This document shows, one piece after another, positions 1,800 through 9,249 of a stretch of 12,715 bases of DNA (positions within the stretch are counted from its first letter, which is position 1; the number at the start of each line of letters is the position of its first letter). The position numbers and the translations under genes are program-made. The DNA comes from a virus. Taxonomy: Monodnaviria > Loebvirae > Hofneiviricota > Faserviricetes > Tubulavirales > Inoviridae. Under the pieces are notes generated by a model that ran no database searches, was not told the origin of the DNA, and saw nothing but the letters and a program-made list of their open reading frames with translations. The stretch lies in IMG/VR virus record IMGVR_UViG_2565956711_000001. One strand, 5' to 3'.

Positions 1800-2234
1800 T
1801 TATGACGACTTATGTAGTTCCCGAATCATATGGTTGGCCAACAGGCTTTCCACCGGTATAACCGAATTGATTTTTACCGCTTTGACAATTTCTATCAACG
1901 AAAGGGTATTTTGCGCTAATTGGTCTCGCAATTCACTTACTTCAGCCTGCAACTGCTGGTTTCTGGCCAGTAAAGCCTGACGGGTTTTGCGGTTGACGTA
2001 TTGCTGTTTTTCTTTTGGGCGTAGATTCAATGGGCCAAGTTGCTGGTCAACATAGGCAGCAATTAGGCGTTTACGCTCTAGGCTGCTCAGCGTACTTAAA
2101 CCACCGTTAACGATACCTTTTGCCTTGAGCCTAATATGCAGGGCCTTGGCGGAAATAGGGGACTTGTCAAAGCCTTCAACCAGCATCAGTTGTAATTCGT
2201 GCTCAATCAGTGTGTTCAGTTCCTTGCCGCGCAT
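1800..2234 (-). CDS. Small accessory protein (144 aa from ATG 2234..2232; 145 aa if TTG 2237..2235), last gene of the recombinase operon; possible HTH plus coiled coil (TnpC/excisionase-like role?)
   Basis: Its ATG shares the A of the TGA stop of the 788-aa gene (TGATG), indicating translational coupling. The protein has Q/L/E-rich heptads (ARNQQLQAEVSELRDQLAQN) and no catalytic motifs. Confidence 0.6.
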   Translation of the reverse strand: MRGKELNTLIEHELQLMLVEGFDKSPISAKALHIRLKAKGIVNGGLSTLSSLERKRLIAAYVDQQLGPLNLRPKEKQQYVNRKTRQALLARNQQLQAEVSELRDQLAQNTLSLIEIVKAVKINSVIPVESLLANHMIRELHKSS

Positions 2235-4600
2235 CAATCATTCTCCTGCATCAATTGTTGGTATTCAAGTGCAAAAAGCTGGGCCAGTGTACGGACTTTG
2301 CCCTCGGTGATTACTCCACCAGACAACACACTCTCAGCAGCAACCAGTTGTTGAGTCTTGGCACGACGATGCCATTGTGCTTGTATTGCCTCGAGTTGCT
2401 GTAACCGTCGTTCGATGTCGGCCAGTCTGGTCTGGTAATCAGGCTGATGTTGAGTAAGTTGGGTCAACTTCGAATGTGCTTGCTGTAAAGCCTGTTTTTT
2501 GGCAATCAGATTTGGTAGCTCATCTATCCGGCCTGTCAGCGTGAAATGTTCACAAAAGGCAGCACTCTGGCATTTCAGTCGATAAGGACATCCCCAGAGG
2601 TTAACTTCCCGCATACAGGAGCCAAATTTCAGCGGATACAGCACGGCATGTCTTGCCACCATGTCAGAGGCTTGCTCTGGTCCTTCTGCGTCGCGGATTT
2701 CTTCAAAGGCGGCAGCAACATCTTCAAAGAGGCCGTTAGCAAATGACGCCTCGACAAACCTGGCTACATCATCCCGATCGTCAAAAGTATGCAGGTTGGC
2801 TTTGATGGTATTGTCCAAAGTCATGTGTTCCGTGACCGCCAGTTGGCCGGTCCGTTTGACGATATCCAGTGGCGTAGCAATGGAGGACGAAGAGGGCGAG
2901 ACAGTTAGTGCTGTCGAAATCGGCTGCAAGGGCACCAACGAGGCGGCTTTTCGCCGTTCTGCAAGCGCCAGATGTTGATAATGCTGATTCTGCGTGATGT
3001 CCACTCGACCCATCAACATTGCCTGTAAGTGGTCAGAGATATCCGCAATAGCAAGAAAGGTATTGATGTTGTGCCGGGGAATGTGGGTACGCATCCGCGT
3101 CGAGGTGCCATCCTCCTCCAGTAATTGATATTTGCTGAATACTGATCCATCAGGCTCAACGTTGCCTAAGAATTTATTCATAAGTGTGTTAGTGAAGGGT
3201 ATCGGTGTAGCCAGCAAAGCCAGTGTGCGCTTTAATGCCAGCGAACCCTTCTCGTGTAGAAATAGCAGATCCTCGTAGTTAACTTGGTAGCGTTTGCCAT
3301 TTTCCATCCAGGCGTGTGTACAGGGTTCGTTGGCATTCGCCAGACCAAATTCGGTCTTAATGTAATGATTGAGAGCAGTCTTGGAATAATAGATAGATTT
3401 GCTGTTTTTCGGGCCTGGTATTTCTTGAACGGGCAGCACACCTCTTTTGCTAAGGGCTTTGGATGTTTTGTCCCGTTGTCCTGCCCGGCCCCGAAAACTT
3501 GAGGTAGTTTGGGTGATGTACTTCACCACATCGTCCAGTTCGACTCGTTCACCGGGCATGTTGCTGATGGCCTGTGGCAGGTAATCAGCAAAAGATTTTG
3601 CCCGTAGATAGGTAAGATGGCTGCGTATTGGTGCGGTCAACATTTTAACGGTACTGAATATACTCTCGACCAGCGGTACTGCCAGCGGTTCTACCCAATG
3701 CGTTCGCTCCCCAGCACCTTTGACACCAACATAACGGATACCAAGAAAATAATCGGGTAATCCCTTGTCCTGAAATCGTTTGCAGATTGCCGGATCATCA
3801 ATCTGGCGTTTAAACAGGGCATCCTGTCTGAGATTAAACGCTTCAATGGAGCGAAAGCCGGTAATAACCAATAACAACAGGCAATTTAACGCGATTTTCT
3901 CAGCATCACTTTCCACCCGCTGGATTAATGCAACTATGTTCAGAAATCCGCGAATGGTAATCAACGCATCTTCACCATCGGTAGTGGTATCAGACAGCTT
4001 GGCCTGCTGTTTCAGCGCCATGGTTTCCCGGGCTTTGCGGGTCAAGTTGGTTTTGTTGGTATACTTCACATCAGAGTTGTATTGCAGTTTAACCAACGTA
4101 AATGTGAAGTGATTGACCAATTTTTGAAGGCTAACGCACCGCCCTTTATAGTTAGCTGTATTGGGGTCACTAGGAGATGAAACGCTACTGAGAAGATCCA
4201 TCGCTCGTTGAATGACAACTGTGCTCAGGTAAGATGGATGGGTCTGTCCTGTCTCATAAAGCATCGCATGGTACCATCGTTTCAGAATCATCAAAGTTGC
4301 CTTTGCCACCGCTGGCGACATACTCCTATTTCCCTGTCGGTAAACCACTACCAGCATAGCTTTCATGAACTGACTATATTCTTTGTCGATGGGCAGATGT
4401 TCTACAATACCTTTGAATCTGTTCATCTCATCAAAACGTAATGTATTTCTGCCGTTCCCTCGCAACCATCCACTTCCCTGGTTACCACTTACCCAGATAT
4501 GATCATTCCATGTTTGGGCAAAATCAGCAGACAGGTGCTGTTCGAACCATTTTTTTTGCTCTTCAATAAAAGCCTGAAAATGCTCAAAGTGATTTTTCAT
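2234..4600 (-). CDS. Large tyrosine recombinase (788 aa), third gene of a recombinase trio; C-terminal Cys cluster and long coiled-coil tail
   Basis: Catalytic signatures are present: box I Arg (LVITGFRSIEAF), HxxR (HIPRHNINTFLA) and the C-terminal LMGRVDITQNQHYQH with the tyrosine nucleophile. A Cys cluster follows (SCMREVNLWGCPYRLKCQSAAFCEHF), then Q/L-rich coiled coil. An AGGTGA Shine-Dalgarno sits 6 nt upstream of the ATG at 4600. Confidence 0.8.
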   Translation of the reverse strand: MKNHFEHFQAFIEEQKKWFEQHLSADFAQTWNDHIWVSGNQGSGWLRGNGRNTLRFDEMNRFKGIVEHLPIDKEYSQFMKAMLVVVYRQGNRSMSPAVAKATLMILKRWYHAMLYETGQTHPSYLSTVVIQRAMDLLSSVSSPSDPNTANYKGRCVSLQKLVNHFTFTLVKLQYNSDVKYTNKTNLTRKARETMALKQQAKLSDTTTDGEDALITIRGFLNIVALIQRVESDAEKIALNCLLLLVITGFRSIEAFNLRQDALFKRQIDDPAICKRFQDKGLPDYFLGIRYVGVKGAGERTHWVEPLAVPLVESIFSTVKMLTAPIRSHLTYLRAKSFADYLPQAISNMPGERVELDDVVKYITQTTSSFRGRAGQRDKTSKALSKRGVLPVQEIPGPKNSKSIYYSKTALNHYIKTEFGLANANEPCTHAWMENGKRYQVNYEDLLFLHEKGSLALKRTLALLATPIPFTNTLMNKFLGNVEPDGSVFSKYQLLEEDGTSTRMRTHIPRHNINTFLAIADISDHLQAMLMGRVDITQNQHYQHLALAERRKAASLVPLQPISTALTVSPSSSSIATPLDIVKRTGQLAVTEHMTLDNTIKANLHTFDDRDDVARFVEASFANGLFEDVAAAFEEIRDAEGPEQASDMVARHAVLYPLKFGSCMREVNLWGCPYRLKCQSAAFCEHFTLTGRIDELPNLIAKKQALQQAHSKLTQLTQHQPDYQTRLADIERRLQQLEAIQAQWHRRAKTQQLVAAESVLSGGVITEGKVRTLAQLFALEYQQLMQEND

Positions 4601-6149
4601 TGGACTTCACCTGTTCCTGATGAAAACGGCAGCGGGCGATAACAGACTCAATTTCAAACTGTGTGGTTTCATGGATTAAAATGAGCGGATTTCGGGAATT
4701 ACCTACACCGTCTGAAATAGCGATTAGTTCATCGACTTCTTTTTTGACGCATTCAAGTAGAGCCTGATGTTCACCATCCGTAAAAGGGCGATAATACAGA
4801 CAGCCGTAACAAGAACGCACTTCGCTGAAAGGGCATGTACTACTGTTCCTGGAGCAACCACCAATTTTATCATGCAACTCGTCACCAACGAGTCCCACCA
4901 CTGGATGGCCTTTCCAATGTGCTGAGTCGACCAGTTCCCCAGTGAGCATCATAGCCACCATATTTTGCCAAACGGGATTCGACCCAAGCGCTTTAGCACG
5001 GATCAAGGCCAACGCGGGAGTTGCCATAATGTAGTATTTAGCTACGGCAAGAGAGGTGTGCCCCAGTACATGTGCTATCTCTTCAGCGCTAGCACCTTGC
5101 ATCGCCAAAGAGTGCCCAACATTGTGGCGTAAATCAGTGGGTGTAATTGTGGGCAATGCAGCTTCGCCACATGCTACGGCGGCTTGATATTCAGGAGGAC
5201 AGAAATTTAGGATTGCCTGATTAATTGCCTGAGACACATAATGCGGAGCTGAAACGCTGAAATCGAATAGTTTATCTTCGGGGTTTTTCTTATATCTCAC
5301 GGTATAGTTCATAATTAACTCCCCAATTTCTGGGGGGATCGCCAGAAATAACCGCTCTGTCGTCACTCGTCTTTGTTTAGCATATGGTAAAAAAACACTG
5401 TATCGAATCAGACCAGATTCCTGATTTCGTGTATCGATACGAACATCTTTGACCGCCAGCCTAGCGAGTTGTACTGGGCGTGCACCCGTTACATAAGCCA
5501 ACCCAAGGATAGCTGCATTGCGCACTTCGCTGTGACTGAAACTTTTGCCATCGCGTAACAACGAAGCCATTTCAAACAGTCCATTGCAAATCATGTTTTT
5601 TTCAAGAGGGTCAAGAATATTATCGATTTCTTGGTAACCCCCCCAATGTTCGAGATACGGTCGAGGGACGAACTCAAGATCATCGTAATCTTCAAGATTG
5701 AAACCTGGGAATGTTTCAGCACAAAGTATTTTTAATCCGAATAACACGGAATAAAAAGTAGCATTATCAATATCCTCTTTTTCGATAAATAATCGGAGCG
5801 TACTAAGCGAAAACCCACCATGTTCTCGACAATATGAAATGATATTCCTCCAATCAAGGTGCAACGCTGGAAGTTTGGTTGGAAATCTCGTCGATGCATA
5901 TTTGAAACAGATATACTTGTTTAATTTATTTGAGATATAATCTTGATTGAAAACAAGATATCGCCGACTGCCTGAATAATCGAAAGTCCATTTATTTCCT
6001 TTGTTAACAATATATTTATCATCAAACTCCATTGCCGTTTTTAGATAAATTCGATCAGGAATATCGAGTTCAAAGATAGCCTTAGCTAAATCAGGAGGGT
6101 AAACTGAGTTCCCTTCGTCAGATTTTAATGCATTATCAAATGATGTCAT
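4584..6149 (-). CDS. Tyrosine recombinase (521 aa), second gene of the trio, with C-terminal Cys-rich extension
   Basis: VTGARPVQL (box I Arg), DLRHNVGHSLA (LRH motif) and VLGHTSLAVAKYYI (LGH...Y) are XerC-like catalytic motifs. The motif CSRNSSTCPFSEVRSCYGC follows the catalytic Tyr. The gene overlaps both neighbours (14 and 17 nt). Confidence 0.8.
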   Translation of the reverse strand: MTSFDNALKSDEGNSVYPPDLAKAIFELDIPDRIYLKTAMEFDDKYIVNKGNKWTFDYSGSRRYLVFNQDYISNKLNKYICFKYASTRFPTKLPALHLDWRNIISYCREHGGFSLSTLRLFIEKEDIDNATFYSVLFGLKILCAETFPGFNLEDYDDLEFVPRPYLEHWGGYQEIDNILDPLEKNMICNGLFEMASLLRDGKSFSHSEVRNAAILGLAYVTGARPVQLARLAVKDVRIDTRNQESGLIRYSVFLPYAKQRRVTTERLFLAIPPEIGELIMNYTVRYKKNPEDKLFDFSVSAPHYVSQAINQAILNFCPPEYQAAVACGEAALPTITPTDLRHNVGHSLAMQGASAEEIAHVLGHTSLAVAKYYIMATPALALIRAKALGSNPVWQNMVAMMLTGELVDSAHWKGHPVVGLVGDELHDKIGGCSRNSSTCPFSEVRSCYGCLYYRPFTDGEHQALLECVKKEVDELIAISDGVGNSRNPLILIHETTQFEIESVIARCRFHQEQVKSNEKSL

Positions 6150-7530
6150 CGTTATATCTATCCATTATAGTATCTAACGTATTATGTAGCGCTGCATTGT
6201 CTTGAATAATTCGTTGGACATTGGCAGCATTAGCCTGCTCAGACAGGAAACGTTTTGCATATAGATCAGGCATTTGACTTGTCGGACTCCATCCCCCCAT
6301 CAGTCGTAGTTCATCTTTAGCTTCTTCCATTATCCCTGAGAGGGAAGGGACTTCAGCAATAAAGTGTGTTTTATTTTGCTGGCTTTTCAAATATTTTAAA
6401 TGCCATATTTTTTGCAATGTCAAAAAGGCCCAAGTATGTCGGGTTGTATGCGGAGTCAATCGTTGCAACGAGTCAGAGTACAACGGTGATTTGTACTCTG
6501 GATATTGGTTAGTGAAGACCTGATCTATTTTCGAAAAAATAGAATGAACTGATGTGTAGGACAAAGGCTTCGCTGACTGTTGACTCGATGTAAAGATGAA
6601 ATCGTGTTTATCAGTTTTTGGTCGAAGCTTTGCTATATAAATGCTTAAAAAAATATAATCCTGCTTATCGAGCTCCAACACACGATTAGCCCATGCATTT
6701 TTGAGAGATGGCGCATTCTTTCTTGGTTCGTATGCCTCGTCGACAGTTGTCACAATCAAACTAAACTTATCACCTTTTAAATTAGGTTTAATTGAGCTGC
6801 ACTCTAACAACAATAGCTCACCTGTTCGTAAACCATAATTTAACAACAGACGAATAATCAAAAAATTGCGGAACTGAAGATGCCCGGAAGGGAAAGGATT
6901 TAGCGGGTTATGCTTTTGGGCAGAAGAGGGGGTTATTATTCCATACAGGCTGAGCACCATTGCCCCAGACAAACTCTGAAATCCTTGGCTGCTGTGACTA
7001 TGTTGCGAAAATTTGTTTGATGTAAGCGTTCGATAATTCTCCCGGCAAAGCTGTAAACGGGTGTGTAAACGCGAAGCCAAAAGTGATAATGCTTTGGGAG
7101 AGTCATCCCGGTATGCAGGTGATATGTAGGTGTTAATCAAAAAAGAAATGAAATGGATCACAGCACGAACTCTAACTGTATGAGTTAAGCTATTGGCTTT
7201 TGTGACTCTCGTTAAAGACAACACATTTGACTGGACGTTGTGGCCATTTTCTAGATACATCCAAAATGCGGGCATTTCACCGACAGCAATGTCTGGATTG
7301 TGGTCAGATGAATAGAAGCTGTAGCAAAACGAGACACCATACTTTTGCCTCCAGAATTCGTAAAAAAACTTCACAGATTGAAGTGAAGCTGACTGTGTGG
7401 ACAATGAGCGGAAAGCCAAATGGTCAATATGGTACCTAAGGGGATACAGCAACGGCAGAGAGGTTTCCAAGTCCATCAGGATCCATCGCCTTTTACGGCC
7501 TGAGATAACCAACTGCTTTAGTGAATACAC
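6136..7530 (-). CDS. Tyrosine recombinase (464 aa, GTG start), first gene of the trio (TnpA/RitA-like position)
   Basis: NYGLRTGELLLLE (box I), TPHTTRHTWA (HxxR) and LMGGWSPTSQMPDLYAKRF (Trp in place of the second His, as in Cre, then Tyr). A GAGG Shine-Dalgarno sits 8 nt upstream of GTG 7530..7528, and a GATAAT -10-like hexamer lies at 7546..7551 (minus). Confidence 0.8.
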   Translation of the reverse strand: MYSLKQLVISGRKRRWILMDLETSLPLLYPLRYHIDHLAFRSLSTQSASLQSVKFFYEFWRQKYGVSFCYSFYSSDHNPDIAVGEMPAFWMYLENGHNVQSNVLSLTRVTKANSLTHTVRVRAVIHFISFLINTYISPAYRDDSPKALSLLASRLHTRLQLCRENYRTLTSNKFSQHSHSSQGFQSLSGAMVLSLYGIITPSSAQKHNPLNPFPSGHLQFRNFLIIRLLLNYGLRTGELLLLECSSIKPNLKGDKFSLIVTTVDEAYEPRKNAPSLKNAWANRVLELDKQDYIFLSIYIAKLRPKTDKHDFIFTSSQQSAKPLSYTSVHSIFSKIDQVFTNQYPEYKSPLYSDSLQRLTPHTTRHTWAFLTLQKIWHLKYLKSQQNKTHFIAEVPSLSGIMEEAKDELRLMGGWSPTSQMPDLYAKRFLSEQANAANVQRIIQDNAALHNTLDTIMDRYNDDII

Positions 7531-7673
7531 AATATTTACCTCAAAATTATCATGGATATGAAGAGAATGTACTCTGTACCTAATGCAAGAAACGAGAGGG
7601 AGATCAGAAATCCTAACGTATTGATTTATCAGTTAGTGGGAGTGTCATATGAACTTATTTACCACAGTAGGTG

Positions 7674-7701
7674 ATTTAACATAATATACATTATGCGCAC
7701 C
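7674..7701 (-). other. dif: dif chromosome dimer resolution site (XerC/XerD), perfect 28-mer
   Basis: The plus strand reads ATTTAACATAATATACATTATGCGCACC. Its reverse complement, GGTGCGCATAA-TGTATA-TTATGTTAAAT, is identical to the E. coli/enterobacterial dif consensus. Confidence 0.9.
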
Positions 7702-7986
7702 AGTGCGCAGATACGCCAGAAATCAGCCTGTAACCATCACCACGGCATTAAACGGTCATCGCTGTTACGTTCTTTCGTCTTCGACCGTCAGCCATCCGTA
7801 TCGCTTCTGAATACGCCGGAATGAAAAACAGGCTTTGCAGTGCCGGGAATTATTATGGCTGACGCCATAATGCTGTTTATGTCCTCGCTTCGCTGCGGGG
7901 CTTCCGGCGCTAAGCGCCTCCCATGCCTGACGGCATAAAAACCGGATATGCCGCCACGTCACCGCATGATACGTCCGTCGCCACCA

Positions 7987-9249
7987 TCACCGCGCGCGCT
8001 CCTCGTGGGAACTCGGTGCGTGCGCGGCGCTGGCGCGCCTGACTTTTTTCGCCTGTAACACGACAAGAATATCCGTCTTGTTCTTCTCGTCAGATGAACT
8101 GGTGAGCCAGCCTTTTGGCAGAAAGCTGAACCCGGTATCGGCGTTTGTGACCTTCGATTCAGCCAGGCCACCCAGCAGAATAATATCCCCGTCAGCCGCT
8201 GATACCTCCGTATTCACCTCGCGCTTAATCAGCGTCGGGCTGTTATTCACGCCCGTATCCGTCTTCGCAAAGCTGGAAAGCTGCTGCTTAATCACAAGGT
8301 CAATATTGTCAGTCCGGATTTGCGGTTTCACGTCGAGGATAACGCCACTAGAGCGATATTCAATCGACTGGATCGGCCTGTTGTCGGCGTAGCTCACCTG
8401 ACCCAGCACCGGAACCTCGTTACCGACTGAAAACGTGGCAGATGCGCCATCCTTCACCCTGAGCCGCGGGGAACTGACGACATGAAAACGACTGTCCGTC
8501 CTGAAAAGCTCATACAGCGCATCAAGAGAGCCTGTATTCACCCGGATAAAGTTATCAAAACCGCCAGACGCGCCAATCTGTATATTCAGCTTGCCGGAAA
8601 GCAGCTTCGCCGCCAGTGCCAGCCCGGAACCGTTACGCTCACTGGTCTGAACCTCAAACACGTAAGCTGCGACAATCACTTCTTCAGAGGCAGTATCAAT
8701 CAGCGGTAAAAGCGTCTGCAACCGCTTAATCTCTGACTTCCGGCCATAATAAACCAGCACATCCCCGGTACGGTTCATAAAGTCCGATGCCGTACCCGCT
8801 ACGGCCGCTTCTGGCGATATCTGCCCGGACGGTAACGAGTTACGCTGACTGTTAAACTGCCCGGTAAACTGTCCGGCCAGAATGTCAGACAGATACGCCA
8901 CGGAACGGAAGCGAGGCCGATAAACAAAGGTCTCCTGCGGCGGCACATACACTTTCGGCGTGAACGGCGCCACGTAGTCAATGCCCTGTTTGTTATAAAT
9001 CGCAATGTTCATATTGCCGAGATAGCGCTTAATAAATGCCCGTTCATCGATATCCGGCGTGATACGGAACGTCACCACCTTATCGGATTTGGCAAGCTCC
9101 GGGTCAAGCATAAACGGCTTATCGAACACCTGAACGTAAATCATGTTCAGCGCCTGCGGCAGCGGAACAGCGTTGAGCTCCAGACTGACGCCCTTCGCCA
9201 TAACCAGCCCCGGAACCAGTAAAAAAAGTAAACCTGTTATCAGCTTCAT
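7987..9249 (-). CDS. Filamentous-phage pIV-like outer-membrane secretin (420 aa)
   Basis: An N-terminal signal peptide (MKLITGLLFLLVPGLVMA) and the C-terminal secretin motif ...LLGGLAESKVTNADTGFSFLPKGWL...ILVVLQAKKV parallel M13 pIV (...LLLGGLTDYKN...GVPFLSKIPLIG...LYVLVKATIV). The size matches pIV (426 aa). The start is coupled to pI by an ATGA overlap. Confidence 0.85.
   Translation of the reverse strand: MKLITGLLFLLVPGLVMAKGVSLELNAVPLPQALNMIYVQVFDKPFMLDPELAKSDKVVTFRITPDIDERAFIKRYLGNMNIAIYNKQGIDYVAPFTPKVYVPPQETFVYRPRFRSVAYLSDILAGQFTGQFNSQRNSLPSGQISPEAAVAGTASDFMNRTGDVLVYYGRKSEIKRLQTLLPLIDTASEEVIVAAYVFEVQTSERNGSGLALAAKLLSGKLNIQIGASGGFDNFIRVNTGSLDALYELFRTDSRFHVVSSPRLRVKDGASATFSVGNEVPVLGQVSYADNRPIQSIEYRSSGVILDVKPQIRTDNIDLVIKQQLSSFAKTDTGVNNSPTLIKREVNTEVSAADGDIILLGGLAESKVTNADTGFSFLPKGWLTSSSDEKNKTDILVVLQAKKVRRASAAHAPSSHEERAR

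What the first reader, a model, noticed from the sequence alone, without database searches (positions are those of the whole stretch)
7693..7986. GC-rich, hairpin-dense non-coding segment between dif and gIV, including an inverted repeat that extends the XerC arm
Immediately outside dif there is TGCGCAC-CA-GTGCGCA (7694-7709), so the XerC-arm core is duplicated in inverted orientation. Further on there are perfect small palindromes: ATTATGGC-TGAC-GCCATAAT (7852-7871), GGCGC-TAA-GCGCC (7906-7918) and GCGCGCGC-rich dyads near 7990-8040. This sits where Ff phages carry their packaging-signal and origin hairpins, after gIV. It could therefore be the phage attP/packaging/origin region rather than chromosome. 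The 65-aa and 70-aa ORFs called here are probably artefacts of GC richness.
Basis: seen in the sequence. Interest (0 to 1): 0.5.

Follow-up and report, generated by a model that had tools for sequence, protein, structure and literature searches.

The report
Filamentous phage primase-type replication start signal
The DNA between the chromosomal dif site and the phage secretin gene belongs to an integrated filamentous phage, and its core is a conserved, folded ~146-base signal, shared with more than 1,500 enterobacterial plasmids and resembling the phage G4 origin, that most likely tells the host primase where to start copying the phage's single strand.

Summary
The segment is phage DNA, not chromosome. 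In prophage-free E. coli, homology stops at the end of dif (7701-7704) and hipA follows. In strain G5 the segment recurs inside a 7,669-bp tandem prophage. It has four hairpins followed by ACTGCAAAGCC. That 11-mer is identical to the annotated primer start of the phage G4 complementary-strand origin. The module follows gene IV in related dif-integrating inoviruses. It also occurs, at about 80-88% identity, in about 1,560 plasmids. In IncFII-type plasmids it lies 700-800 bp downstream of repA. In 43 distinct copies, 13 of 24 base pairs show compensatory changes. There are 35 G·T wobbles on the viral strand and no A·C. The best reading is a G4-type (DnaG primase) priming site that serves as the phage minus-strand origin. 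It is not an Ff-type origin. The repeat GTGCGCA next to dif is phage-borne and forms the base of a CTX-type attP hairpin, whose other half lies outside the window. No packaging signal was found. The function has not been tested experimentally.

The parts
7674..7701 (-). The dif site, a perfect 28-bp E. coli dif. The XerD arm and central region are chromosomal. The XerC arm (7691-7701) is inferred to come from the phage after XerC-mediated strand exchange.
   Evidence: Sequence read. Chromosomal homology in prophage-free strains ends at 7702-7704. The phage attP in the G5 tandem junction carries the same XerC arm, GGTGCGCATAA.
7702..7713 (-). Phage flank AGTGCGCAGATA (minus strand: TATCTGCGCACT).
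   Evidence: The flank is present at both phage copies in G5 and in L004, L008, L010, L013 and L014, whichever neighbouring module is present. In the fold of the G5 junction it pairs with the sequence beyond the second dif-like site. It is not conserved in L007 or L012.
7714..7809 (-). Module U, of unknown function. It is a mosaic spacer between the priming signal and attP, with a conserved block GGTCGAAGACGAAAGAAC that is also found in IncX4 plasmids.
   Evidence: Alignments. A different, unrelated module occupies this position in L004, L009, L010 and L013. The consensus structure is unsupported: -8.8 kcal/mol with a covariation term of +0.77.
7810..7955 (-). Conserved G4-type priming signal (G-site), the proposed minus-strand origin of the phage. 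It functions on the viral (window minus) strand.
   Evidence: Covariance model R1 scores it 161 bits, and it is the only hit in the window. Family members occur in inoviruses and plasmids. Covariation is shown, and the strand asymmetry of wobble pairs.
7831..7841 (-). Start block ACTGCAAAGCC. The CTG is 7840-7838 on the minus strand. The predicted first primer base lies opposite T7839, and the primer would read AGTGCCGGGAAT... (plus-strand sense).
   Evidence: The 11 nt are identical to G4 3995-4005, where the GenBank record annotates the RNA primer at 3970-3997 and the complementary-strand origin at 3998. CTG is retained in 39 of 43 distinct family members. Primase starts at the T of CTG, 3' of the stem-loops (PMC6783573).
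7852..7871 (-). Hairpin a' (stem-loop nearest the start): ATTATGGC-GTCA-GCCATAAT.
   Evidence: Perfect 8-bp stem. Four of its 8 pairs show compensatory changes, for example UA in 15 copies and CG in 28, and AU in 14, GC in 16 and GU in 12.
7883..7900 (-). Hairpin b': CCCCGC-AGCGAA-GCGAGG. The sequence is almost invariant across the family.
   Evidence: four of the five modelled pairs never vary and one shows CG/UG. There is an invariant internal C·A mismatch on this strand. Conservation is of sequence, so the pairing itself is untested.
7906..7918 (-). Hairpin c': GGCGC-TTA-GCGCC.
   Evidence: Perfect 5-bp stem. Three of its 5 pairs show compensatory changes.
7923..7936 (-). Hairpin d': ATGCC-GTCA-GGCAT, preceded on the viral strand by a T-run (7937-7943).
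   Evidence: All 6 modelled pairs show compensatory changes across the family, and the stem is longer in plasmid copies.
7956..7986 (-). Short spacer between the gene IV stop codon (7989-7987) and the priming signal. No function is assigned.
   Evidence: The sequence type here varies between relatives. No intrinsic terminator is predicted on the minus strand.
7987..9249 (-). Gene IV (secretin), the last gene of the phage morphogenesis block. It is given as context, and the GCGCGC dyads at 7990-8040 lie inside it.
   Evidence: Pfam Secretin, E = 2e-24. It is followed upstream by Zot/pI, DUF2523 and a 627-aa pIII-like ORF. RefSeq annotation of the G5 prophage agrees.

Best explanation
Window 7702-7986 is the gene-IV-proximal end of a filamentous (inovirus) prophage integrated at dif. 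Its conserved core, 7810-7955 read on the minus strand, is a G4-type single-strand initiation signal ('G-site'), and the minus strand is the packaged viral strand.

Proposed mechanism, all inferred: when the viral single strand enters a cell and becomes coated with SSB, four hairpins (d', c', b', a') stay folded. They present the 3'-flanking block ACTGCAAAGCC to host DnaG primase. Primase starts an RNA primer opposite the T of CTG (7839) and copies into hairpin a'. Pol III then extends the primer around the circle to make the replicative form. Because synthesis runs away from attP, the attP hairpin about 130 nt 3' of the start is the last part of the genome to become double-stranded.

What is shown: the segment is of phage origin; the module is conserved; it occurs on plasmids; its pairs covary; and the structure shows strand polarity.

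What is shown at sequence level only: identity of the start block with the annotated G4 start.

The 12 bases next to dif (7702-7713) belong to the phage's CTX-type attP. They form the base of the forked hairpin made by two inverted dif-like sites. The window holds only the half that stayed next to the regenerated dif.
For: (1) Phage origin. Chromosomal identity ends at 7702-7704 in 1,243 records at 99% identity or more. The empty site has hipA next to dif. G5 has a tandem prophage with the segment in each 7,669-bp unit.

(2) A discrete conserved module with mosaic flanks occurs in 9 IMG/VR inovirus contigs, in a tandem inovirus integrated in a Klebsiella plasmid, and in 1,560 PLSDB plasmids, 1,301 of which cover at least 80% of the 121-nt core.

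(3) Structure. In 43 distinct copies, 97.1% of cells are paired. Thirteen of 24 pairs show compensatory changes, against 5.0 +/- 1.1 in shuffles (0 of 500 reach the observed value) and at most 3 in slid controls. The smaller 21-sequence set gives the same result.

(4) Polarity. There are 35 G·T wobble cells and no A·C cells on the strand that equals the window minus strand. This is the coding strand of genes I, III, IV and VI, and hence the viral strand by the rule that holds for known inoviruses.

(5) G4 link. ACTGCAAAGCC is identical to the G4 sequence spanning the annotated primer start. CTG is kept in 39 of 43 copies. The layout of stem-loops 5' and CTG 3' is the one described for G4ori (PMC6783573).

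(6) Plasmid position. In IncFII-type replicons the module lies 720-790 bp downstream of the repA stop, on the strand opposite repA, with the CTG end proximal to repA (L005, L020, L021). The best model hits in 49 kb of R100 and 50 kb of ColIb-P9 fall at the same place and polarity: 698-870 and 693-863 bp after repA. From my own knowledge (Masai & Arai 1989 J Biol Chem; Tanaka et al. 1992 NAR and 1994 J Bacteriol; not retrievable here), this is where primase-dependent G-sites were mapped in R1/R100 and ColIb-P9.

(7) attP. The G5 tandem junction folds as a forked hairpin at -37.1 kcal/mol, z = -7.9. It has two inverted dif-like sites, as described for CTX-type phages including Ypf and CUS-1 (PMC4246890).
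Against: No experiment supports this.

The G4 origin itself is not detected by the family model at E up to 10. The direct link to G4 therefore rests on the 11-nt start block plus overall architecture.

The hits to R100 (9.2 bits) and ColIb-P9 (11.4 bits) are individually weak.

The element has four hairpins and an 11-nt spacer before CTG. G4 has three hairpins and a 3-nt spacer.

Its predicted stability is ordinary: z = -1.28, against -4.65 for G4oric.

Hairpin b' is invariant and has a C·A mismatch on the viral strand that would be G·T on the other strand.

In IncX4 plasmids the strong copy lies on the strand I infer is not transferred.

The covariation counts come from an alignment fitted to the model.

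The mapped positions of the classical G-sites are from memory, not from a document I could read.
Confidence: 0.72

Rival explanations
1. It is an RNA-polymerase-dependent single-strand promoter. Hairpins would mimic -35/-10 elements, as in the Ff minus-strand origin or the plasmid Frpo elements, and RNA polymerase would make the primer.
For: It sits just after gene IV, where Ff phages carry their minus origin (established knowledge). A weak promoter-like match, TAAACA-16-CATAAT, lies on the minus strand at 7879-7852, with its -10 in the 3' arm of hairpin a'. Plasmid copies occur in leading regions, where Frpo-type elements are known.
Against: The -10-like CATAAT is not conserved; family members have CGTAAT, CGTAAC or CGTGAC. 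The -35-like hexamer varies. There is no similarity to Ff, IKe or any other deposited phage. The conserved 3' block equals the G4 primase start. In IncFII-type replicons it lies downstream of repA rather than in a leading region.
Confidence: 0.07
2. It is a phiX174-type primosome assembly site, recognised by PriA rather than directly by primase.
For: The invariant block CCGCAGCGAAGCGAGGA contains GAAGCGA, which is close to the AAGCGG motif I recall from n'-protein sites (own knowledge, not tested). It is a structured single-strand element found on plasmids and phage.
Against: The conserved CTG-containing block is identical to the G4 start. The layout is stem-loops 5' and CTG 3', as described for G4ori. 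The position matches the primase-dependent sites of IncFII and IncI replicons.
Confidence: 0.05
3. The structure acts as RNA. It would be a folded 3' untranslated region of the gene IV transcript or a small RNA, for example a stability or termination element.
For: The wobble asymmetry (35 G·U, no A·C) fits a sense RNA as well as it fits the viral DNA strand. The element directly follows the gene IV stop codon.
Against: No Rfam family matches at a meaningful score. No intrinsic terminator is predicted. The same module sits on plasmids in unrelated transcriptional contexts and antisense to repA. The G4 start-block identity is unexplained by an RNA role.
Confidence: 0.06
4. It is the phage packaging signal, a hairpin recognised by the assembly machinery, as found after gene IV in Ff phages.
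For: The position after gene IV is analogous to the Ff packaging signal (established knowledge). The element is structured on the viral strand.
Against: The same module is in about 1,560 plasmids that are not packaged. It consists of several short hairpins rather than one long imperfect hairpin. Phage-specific modules next to it vary while it stays constant.
Confidence: 0.04
5. The segment is chromosomal DNA flanking dif, and its hairpins are incidental.
For: None was found.
Against: Prophage-free strains have hipA, not this sequence, next to dif. The segment is repeated inside a tandem prophage. It also occurs in viral contigs.
Confidence: 0.01

Closest known systems
Complementary-strand origin of microvirus G4 (G4oric), the prototype primase-dependent priming site
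   Same: Both act on a single-stranded viral genome. Both have several stem-loops followed 3' by CTG. The 11-nt block ACTGCAAAGCC across the start is identical. The predicted primer begins AGT and runs into the nearest hairpin.
   Different: There is no overall sequence similarity, and the family model does not detect G4. The window element has four hairpins against three, and an 11-nt spacer against 3 nt between the last hairpin and CTG. Predicted stability is lower. The host is an inovirus, not a microvirus.
Plasmid G-sites (G4-type ssi signals) of IncFII R1/R100 and IncI1 ColIb-P9, downstream of the replication origin
   Same: The window-type module sits in IncFII(K)-like plasmids at the equivalent position and polarity. 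R100 and ColIb-P9 give their best model hits there. They share ATGCCGC..GCGGCATGGAAGGCGG and CCCAGCCCTGC(C/T)A(G/A)(A/G)CC.
   Different: R100 and ColIb-P9 belong to a diverged subfamily with a 33-nt insertion in hairpin c'. They score only 9-11 bits. Their experimental mapping is recalled from the literature, not read here. In the phage the site would prime whole-genome complementary-strand synthesis, not leading-strand synthesis of a theta replicon.
Ff (M13/f1/fd) intergenic region: packaging signal, minus origin and plus origin after gene IV
   Same: The genomic position is the same, directly after gene IV on the viral strand. The logic is also the same: folded DNA recruits a host enzyme to prime the complementary strand.
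   Different: There is no sequence similarity. There is no conserved -35/-10 mimic. The proposed enzyme is primase rather than RNA polymerase. No packaging hairpin was identified. attP and two reverse-oriented ORFs lie between this region and the replication gene.
CTX-type attP of Xer-exploiting filamentous phages (CTXphi, RS1, YpfPhi, CUS-1Phi)
   Same: There are two dif-like sites in inverted orientation around a GC hairpin. On the viral strand they fold into a forked hairpin with a paired XerC arm and a bulged central region. Integration regenerates dif and produces tandem arrays. The class is described in PMC4246890.
   Different: Only the XerC-arm half plus its flank is inside the window. 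The role of the flank GTGCGCA as stem base is a fold prediction, and it is not conserved in L007 or L012. Unlike CTXphi, this phage encodes its own secretin.
UPphi phages: IKe/I2-2-like, dif-integrating inoviruses of Enterobacterales (PMC7307601)
   Same: They share host range, dif integration as tandem repeats, the full Ff-like gene order including gene IV, and extra reverse-oriented ORFs near dif. The Klebsiella relative L004 is annotated with IKe-like virion proteins.
   Different: Membership of the window phage was not tested. It has no blastn match to IKe or I2-2. In the passages read here, that paper does not describe a minus-strand origin or an attP hairpin.

Membership tests
G4-type single-strand initiation signal (G-site) | Several stable stem-loops on the template single strand, maintained by selection | tested here: met
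   There are four helices. 97.1% of cells are paired. Thirteen of 24 pairs show compensatory change, against 5.0 +/- 1.1 in shuffles and at most 3 in slid controls. Caveats: hairpin b' is invariant, so its pairing is untested, and the alignment was fitted to the model.
G4-type single-strand initiation signal (G-site) | 5'-CTG-3' start trinucleotide located 3' of the stem-loops on the template strand | tested here: met
   CTG lies at 7840-7838 (minus strand), 11 nt 3' of hairpin a'. It is retained in 39 of 43 distinct copies. The feature is as described for G4ori in PMC6783573.
G4-type single-strand initiation signal (G-site) | Sequence relationship to the G4 origin | tested here: inconclusive
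   There is 11/11 identity, ACTGCAAAGCC, at the annotated G4 primer start. However, the covariance model finds no hit in G4 at E up to 10.
G4-type single-strand initiation signal (G-site) | Structure lies on the strand that is single-stranded and serves as template (the viral strand, or the leading-strand template downstream of oriR) | tested here: met
   There are 35 G·T and no A·C on the strand that equals the coding strand of the phage genes. In IncFII-type plasmids the structure is on the strand opposite repA, with CTG proximal to repA, so synthesis would run away from repA. The direction of R1 replication is from my own knowledge.
G4-type single-strand initiation signal (G-site) | Occupies the position of experimentally mapped plasmid G-sites | tested here: inconclusive
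   The best hits in R100 and ColIb-P9 lie 693-870 bp downstream of repA. Strong copies in IncFII(K)-like plasmids are at the same place. The mapped positions come from memory of papers that could not be retrieved.
G4-type single-strand initiation signal (G-site) | Rifampicin-resistant priming by DnaG primase with SSB alone | not testable with these tools
   This needs an in vitro priming assay or an M13 minus-origin complementation assay.
Ff-type minus-strand origin (RNA-polymerase dependent) | Hairpins that mimic a sigma-70 promoter, with conserved -35/-10-like elements | tested here: not met
   There is only a 9/12 match in the window. The -10-like hexamer is replaced by CGTAAC, CGTGAC and similar in family members.
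Ff-type minus-strand origin (RNA-polymerase dependent) | Sequence similarity to Ff/IKe intergenic regions | tested here: not met
   blastn in distant mode against 50,697 phage records found no Ff or IKe match.
CTX-type attP (two inverted dif-like sites folding on the plus strand) | Two dif-like sites in inverted orientation that form a stable forked hairpin on the viral strand | tested here: met
   This is met in relatives at 98.8% identity. G5 tandem junction L001 16585-16725 (minus strand) folds at -37.1 kcal/mol, z = -7.9. The same sites are present in L004, L008, L010, L011, L013, L014 and L015. Within the window, only the XerC arm and its flank are present.
CTX-type attP (two inverted dif-like sites folding on the plus strand) | Integration junction at the XerC arm/central region boundary, regenerating dif | tested here: met
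   Window 7674-7701 is a perfect dif joined to the phage flank. The phage site has the same XerC arm but a different, longer central region, TGTGTGACTCG.
CTX-type attP (two inverted dif-like sites folding on the plus strand) | XerC-catalysed single strand exchange on single-stranded DNA | not testable with these tools
   This needs in vivo or in vitro Xer recombination assays.
Ff-type packaging signal | One long imperfect hairpin on the viral strand next to gene IV | tested here: not met
   No such hairpin appears in folds of 7674-7990, in module U or in the spacer after gene IV.

The most novel reading that the evidence does not exclude
The priming cassette is a mobile module exchanged between conjugative plasmids and dif-integrating inoviruses, and its placement in the phage is functional. 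It sits about 130-170 nt 5' of attP on the viral strand and fires away from it. As a result, the attP forked hairpin is the very last part of the genome to be converted to duplex. This would maximise the time during which the single-stranded attP is available to XerCD. Replication priming and single-strand integration would then be coupled by geometry.
Probability: 0.25. Interest if true: 0.6.

Novelty: new member of a known kind. Interest (0 to 1): 0.5.

Why it matters
Filamentous phages are generally taken to prime their complementary strand with RNA polymerase, while primase-dependent G-sites are associated with G4-like microviruses and with plasmids.

Here a group of dif-integrating enterobacterial inoviruses appears to carry a G-site cassette. 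It is 80-88% identical to one found in IncX4, IncFII(K), IncN and other plasmids, and it has mosaic flanks. This is direct evidence that phages and plasmids swap small non-coding replication modules.

The element has no listed feature under it in about 1,560 plasmid records (though the PLSDB feature table omits non-coding features), and it has no Rfam family. The covariance model built here could mark the leading-strand start of clinically important Klebsiella and E. coli plasmids, and the minus origin of these prophages.

The segment is phage DNA, and the prophage boundary on this side is the XerC-arm edge of dif.

All functional statements remain predictions.

Tried and rejected
- Rfam at permissive threshold over 7500-8200 gave only chance-level hits of 11-16 bits.
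- blastn against 50,697 phage records found nothing relevant for the segment, and only weak inovirus gene matches for the prophage.
- Whole-segment and core folding energies are not distinguishable from shuffles. Thermodynamics alone would have dismissed the element.
- R100 shows no blastn match. Its relationship appeared only by eye and with the covariance model.
- G4 is not found by the model. The F plasmid has only a partial copy at 40761-40871, away from its known origins.
- R6K (LT827129) is not in the plasmid collection.
- The papers that mapped the plasmid G-sites could not be retrieved. PMC557023 and a guessed PMC205550 were tried, and full-text searches found no description of a G-site in an inovirus.
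- Module U (7714-7809) was tested for a conserved structure and none was supported.
- A terminator for gene IV was sought on the minus strand and not found.
- An ORF-frame comparison for the 65-aa ORF was uninformative, because this GC-rich stretch is stop-poor in several frames. The argument against coding rests on indels, on the plasmid contexts and on substitutions that follow pairing.
- I considered that GTGCGCA at 7703-7709 is a second XerC half-site. It matches the XerC arm at 8 of 11 positions. However, it faces outward, has no adjacent XerD-like arm, and is not conserved in L007 or L012, so I prefer the stem-base reading, itself only a prediction.
Full report
**Observation**

- The dif site is 7674-7701, the reverse complement of GGTGCGCATAATGTATATTATGTTAAAT, with the XerC arm at 7691-7701.
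- TGCGCAC-CA-GTGCGCA is at 7694-7709.
- ATTATGGC-TGAC-GCCATAAT is at 7852-7871.
- GGCGC-TAA-GCGCC is at 7906-7918.
- I add two more hairpins: ATGCC-TGAC-GGCAT at 7923-7936 and CCTCGC-TTCGCT-GCGGGG at 7883-7900.

GC content is 54.4% in 7702-7986. It is 43.1% left of dif and 47.3% in the rest of the phage.

Perfect short hairpins are more frequent than in dinucleotide shuffles: 8 against 1.96 +/- 1.6, P = 0.002. The folding energy of the whole segment is unremarkable, with z = -1.3 and -1.65 on the two strands.

The GCGCGC dyads at 7990-8040 are inside the 3' end of the secretin gene (7987-9249, minus strand; Pfam Secretin, E = 2e-24).

**Phage or chromosome**

- Of 1,379 E. coli records that match window 7600-8100, 1,243 match at 99% or more, and the listed ones cover only 7600-7702/7704.
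- In one such strain, hipA follows dif directly.
- Only three genomes carry the segment at 97-99% identity.
- In strain G5 the segment occurs twice, 7,669 bp apart. Each copy follows a secretin gene inside a tandem prophage that encodes replication protein, major coat, pIII-like, DUF2523, Zot and secretin.

The window has the same gene order on its minus strand. The segment is therefore the gene-IV-proximal end of a dif-integrated inovirus.

**The attP**

The G5 tandem junction shows what the phage attachment region looks like. There are two dif-like sites in inverted orientation:

- AATGCGCATAATGACGTTATGCTAAAG
- the complement of GGTGCGCATAATGTGTGACTCGTTATGTTGAAA

They flank a GC-rich hairpin. 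On the viral strand this region folds into a forked hairpin of -37.1 kcal/mol, z = -7.9.

The same arrangement is present in seven other related loci. It is the architecture described for CTXphi, with Ypf and CUS-1 as related members (PMC4246890).

XerC-type exchange at the boundary between the arm and the central region would leave the phage XerC arm joined to the chromosomal central region and XerD arm. That is exactly what the window shows: a perfect dif abutting the phage flank.

This flank travels with the XerC arm whichever neighbouring module is present. In the fold, it pairs with the sequence beyond the other dif-like site and so extends the stem. It is not conserved in the more distant dif-integrated relatives L007 and L012. 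TGCGCA is also self-complementary. I therefore treat the stem-base role as plausible but unproven.

**The unexpected result**

A distant-mode search of the plasmid collection with 7674-8100 gave 1,567 records. The 121-nt core 7815-7935 alone gave 1,560, of which 1,301 cover at least 80% of it. Identity is mostly 80-90%. Of these records 1,202 are conjugative, and Klebsiella, Escherichia, Salmonella and Enterobacter predominate.

Nothing is listed under these matches. However, the PLSDB feature table omits non-coding features.

A pattern scan found the same core in nine IMG/VR viral contigs. An alignment shows a sharply bounded conserved module with mosaic flanks. Two unrelated sequence types occur on the attP side, and at least two on the gene IV side, in all combinations.

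A species-level genome scan found the core only in Enterobacterales, apart from one MAG labelled Celeribacter.

**Structure and strand**

I built a covariance model from 21 distinct copies with four hand-assigned hairpins. It scores the window at 161 bits, and that is the only hit in the window.

On 43 distinct copies:

- 97.1% of cells pair.
- 13 of 24 pairs show compensatory changes, against 5.0 +/- 1.1 in shuffles (0 of 500 reach the observed value) and at most 3 when partners are slid.
- The 21-sequence set behaves the same way.

Hairpins d', c' and a' covary. Hairpin b' (CCCCGC-AGCGAA-GCGAGG) is essentially invariant, so its conservation is of sequence. These alignments were fitted to the model, which favours the structure. 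The compensatory changes are, however, also visible in the plain MAFFT alignment.

All one-sided changes are G·T on the strand that corresponds to the window minus strand: 35 G·T cells and no A·C. The selected fold is therefore on that strand. It is the coding strand of the phage genes, and hence the packaged strand by the rule that holds for known inoviruses (established knowledge).

**Link to G4**

On the viral strand the module reads 5'-d'-c'-b'-a'-AATTCCCGGC-ACTGCAAAGCC-TGTTTTT-3'.

The GenBank record of phage G4 annotates the RNA primer of complementary-strand synthesis at 3970-3997 and the origin at 3998. The sequence there is ...GGACGGCGAAAGCCGCCGTCCCTACTGCAAAGCCAAAAGG. The 11 bases ACTGCAAAGCC are identical to window 7841-7831.

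One plasmid copy, L018, reads CACTGCAAAGCCGAAAAGG, which is closer still.

Primase starts at the T of CTG, located 3' of the G4 stem-loops (PMC6783573). CTG is retained in 39 of 43 family members.

By analogy the primer here would start opposite T7839, read AGTGCC..., and run into hairpin a'.

**Link to plasmid G-sites**

In IncFII-type replicons the module lies 720-790 bp downstream of the repA stop. It is on the strand opposite repA, with CTG nearest repA. DNA synthesis primed there would therefore run away from repA.

R100 has no blastn match. Its best model hit in 49 kb is nevertheless at exactly that place and polarity (45368-45540). The best hit in 50 kb of ColIb-P9 is also at the equivalent place (2179-2349).

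Both share the d' hairpin, GGAAGGCGG, and CCCAGCCCTGC(C/T)A(G/A)(A/G)CC with the family, and both have a 33-nt insertion in c'.

From my own knowledge, primase-dependent G-sites were mapped about 400 bp downstream of oriR in R1/R100 (Masai & Arai 1989) and downstream of the ColIb-P9 origin (Tanaka et al. 1992, 1994). I could not retrieve these papers, so this step is marked as recalled.

Other contexts are as follows.

- In an IncN plasmid, the module lies in the leading region beyond stbC, on the strand I infer is transferred.
- In IncX4 it lies next to taxA, on the strand I infer is retained.
- In IncX4, two diverged R100-like copies lie on the other strand in the leading region.

**Interpretation**

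The best-supported reading is that 7810-7955 is a G4-type priming signal serving as the phage minus-strand origin (confidence about 0.7).

- An RNA-polymerase-type origin is unlikely. The only promoter-like match is not conserved, and there is no similarity to Ff-like phages.
- A packaging signal is unlikely, because the module is on plasmids.
- An RNA role cannot be excluded on polarity alone. It does not, however, explain the G4 start block or the plasmid contexts, and no Rfam family or terminator fits.

The remaining parts of the segment have no assigned function. Module U (7714-7809) has a conserved block shared with IncX4 but no supported structure. The 31-nt spacer after gene IV is also unassigned.

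The 65-aa ORF has no family match. Close relatives carry single-base indels within it. The RefSeq 43-aa ORF that starts in the XerC arm is likewise unlikely to be real.

**Comparison and novelty**

G-sites are a long-known class in G4-like microviruses and plasmids. CTX-type attP sites and dif-integrating enterobacterial inoviruses are also known, for example Ypf, CUS-1 and the UPphi phages.

What appears new is that a natural inovirus lineage carries a G-site cassette in the position of the Ff minus origin, and that the cassette is nearly the same as one spread across IncX4, IncFII(K), IncN and other plasmids. I found no description of this in the searchable literature, which lacks most older papers.

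I file it as a new member of a known kind, of moderate interest.

The most novel reading not excluded is that the placement of the site, firing away from the nearby attP, keeps the attP hairpin single-stranded until the end of complementary-strand synthesis and so favours XerCD integration.

Noticed in passing
window 2234-7530 (minus strand): A three-gene block lies directly against the XerD side of dif: a 788-aa ORF with no Pfam match and two tyrosine-recombinase ORFs of 521 and 464 aa. The block has low GC. This left flank of dif is present in only about 1,362 of 5,426 complete E. coli genomes, so it may itself be a mobile element.
   Followed up: no
L011 7673-9953 (IMG/VR UViG 2534682223): A 2.3-kb insert carries a 467-aa transposase-like ORF and a 214-aa ORF.
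   Followed up: partly
L003 7782-7953 and 9862-10033 (IncX4 pBS512_33, plus strand): Two further diverged copies of the element, 16.3 bits each, lie about 2 kb apart in the leading region. They resemble the R100/ColIb-P9 subfamily, with a 35-nt insertion in hairpin c' and CCCTGCAAAGCC. They are on the strand opposite to the strong copy next to taxA.
   Followed up: partly
window 8020-8049 (plus strand): A terminator-like GC hairpin followed by TGACTTTTTT lies antisense inside the 3' end of gene IV. In the circular or tandem form, it could stop transcripts that enter from the reverse-oriented phage ORFs.
   Followed up: no
L001 9020-9151 and 16689-16820 (equivalent to window 7693-7824, plus strand): RefSeq annotates a 43-aa hypothetical protein (WP_262162528.1) whose ATG lies inside the XerC arm of dif or attP. 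It overlaps module U and is probably a spurious call.
   Followed up: no
L023 40761-40871 (F plasmid NC_002483, minus strand): A partial copy of the element scores 27.8 bits (E = 5e-7). It has hairpins b' and a' only, with no d', c' or clear CTG block, and it lies between the RepFIB and pif regions.
   Followed up: no
L028, L031, L032, L036 (Erwinia tracheiphila chromosome contig); L041 ('Celeribacter' MAG): The Erwinia tracheiphila chromosome carries at least five full copies of the element at separate places. One MAG assigned to Celeribacter also carries a copy, which suggests a mis-binned enterobacterial plasmid contig.
   Followed up: no
L004 9001-9030 (Klebsiella sp. LY plasmid, 316 kb): A tandem inovirus related to the window phage is integrated in a large IncU/MOBH plasmid. 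The integration site is dif-like, GGTGCGCATAATGTACGTTATGTTAAAT. Xer-exploiting phages therefore also target plasmid dimer-resolution-type sites.
   Followed up: no
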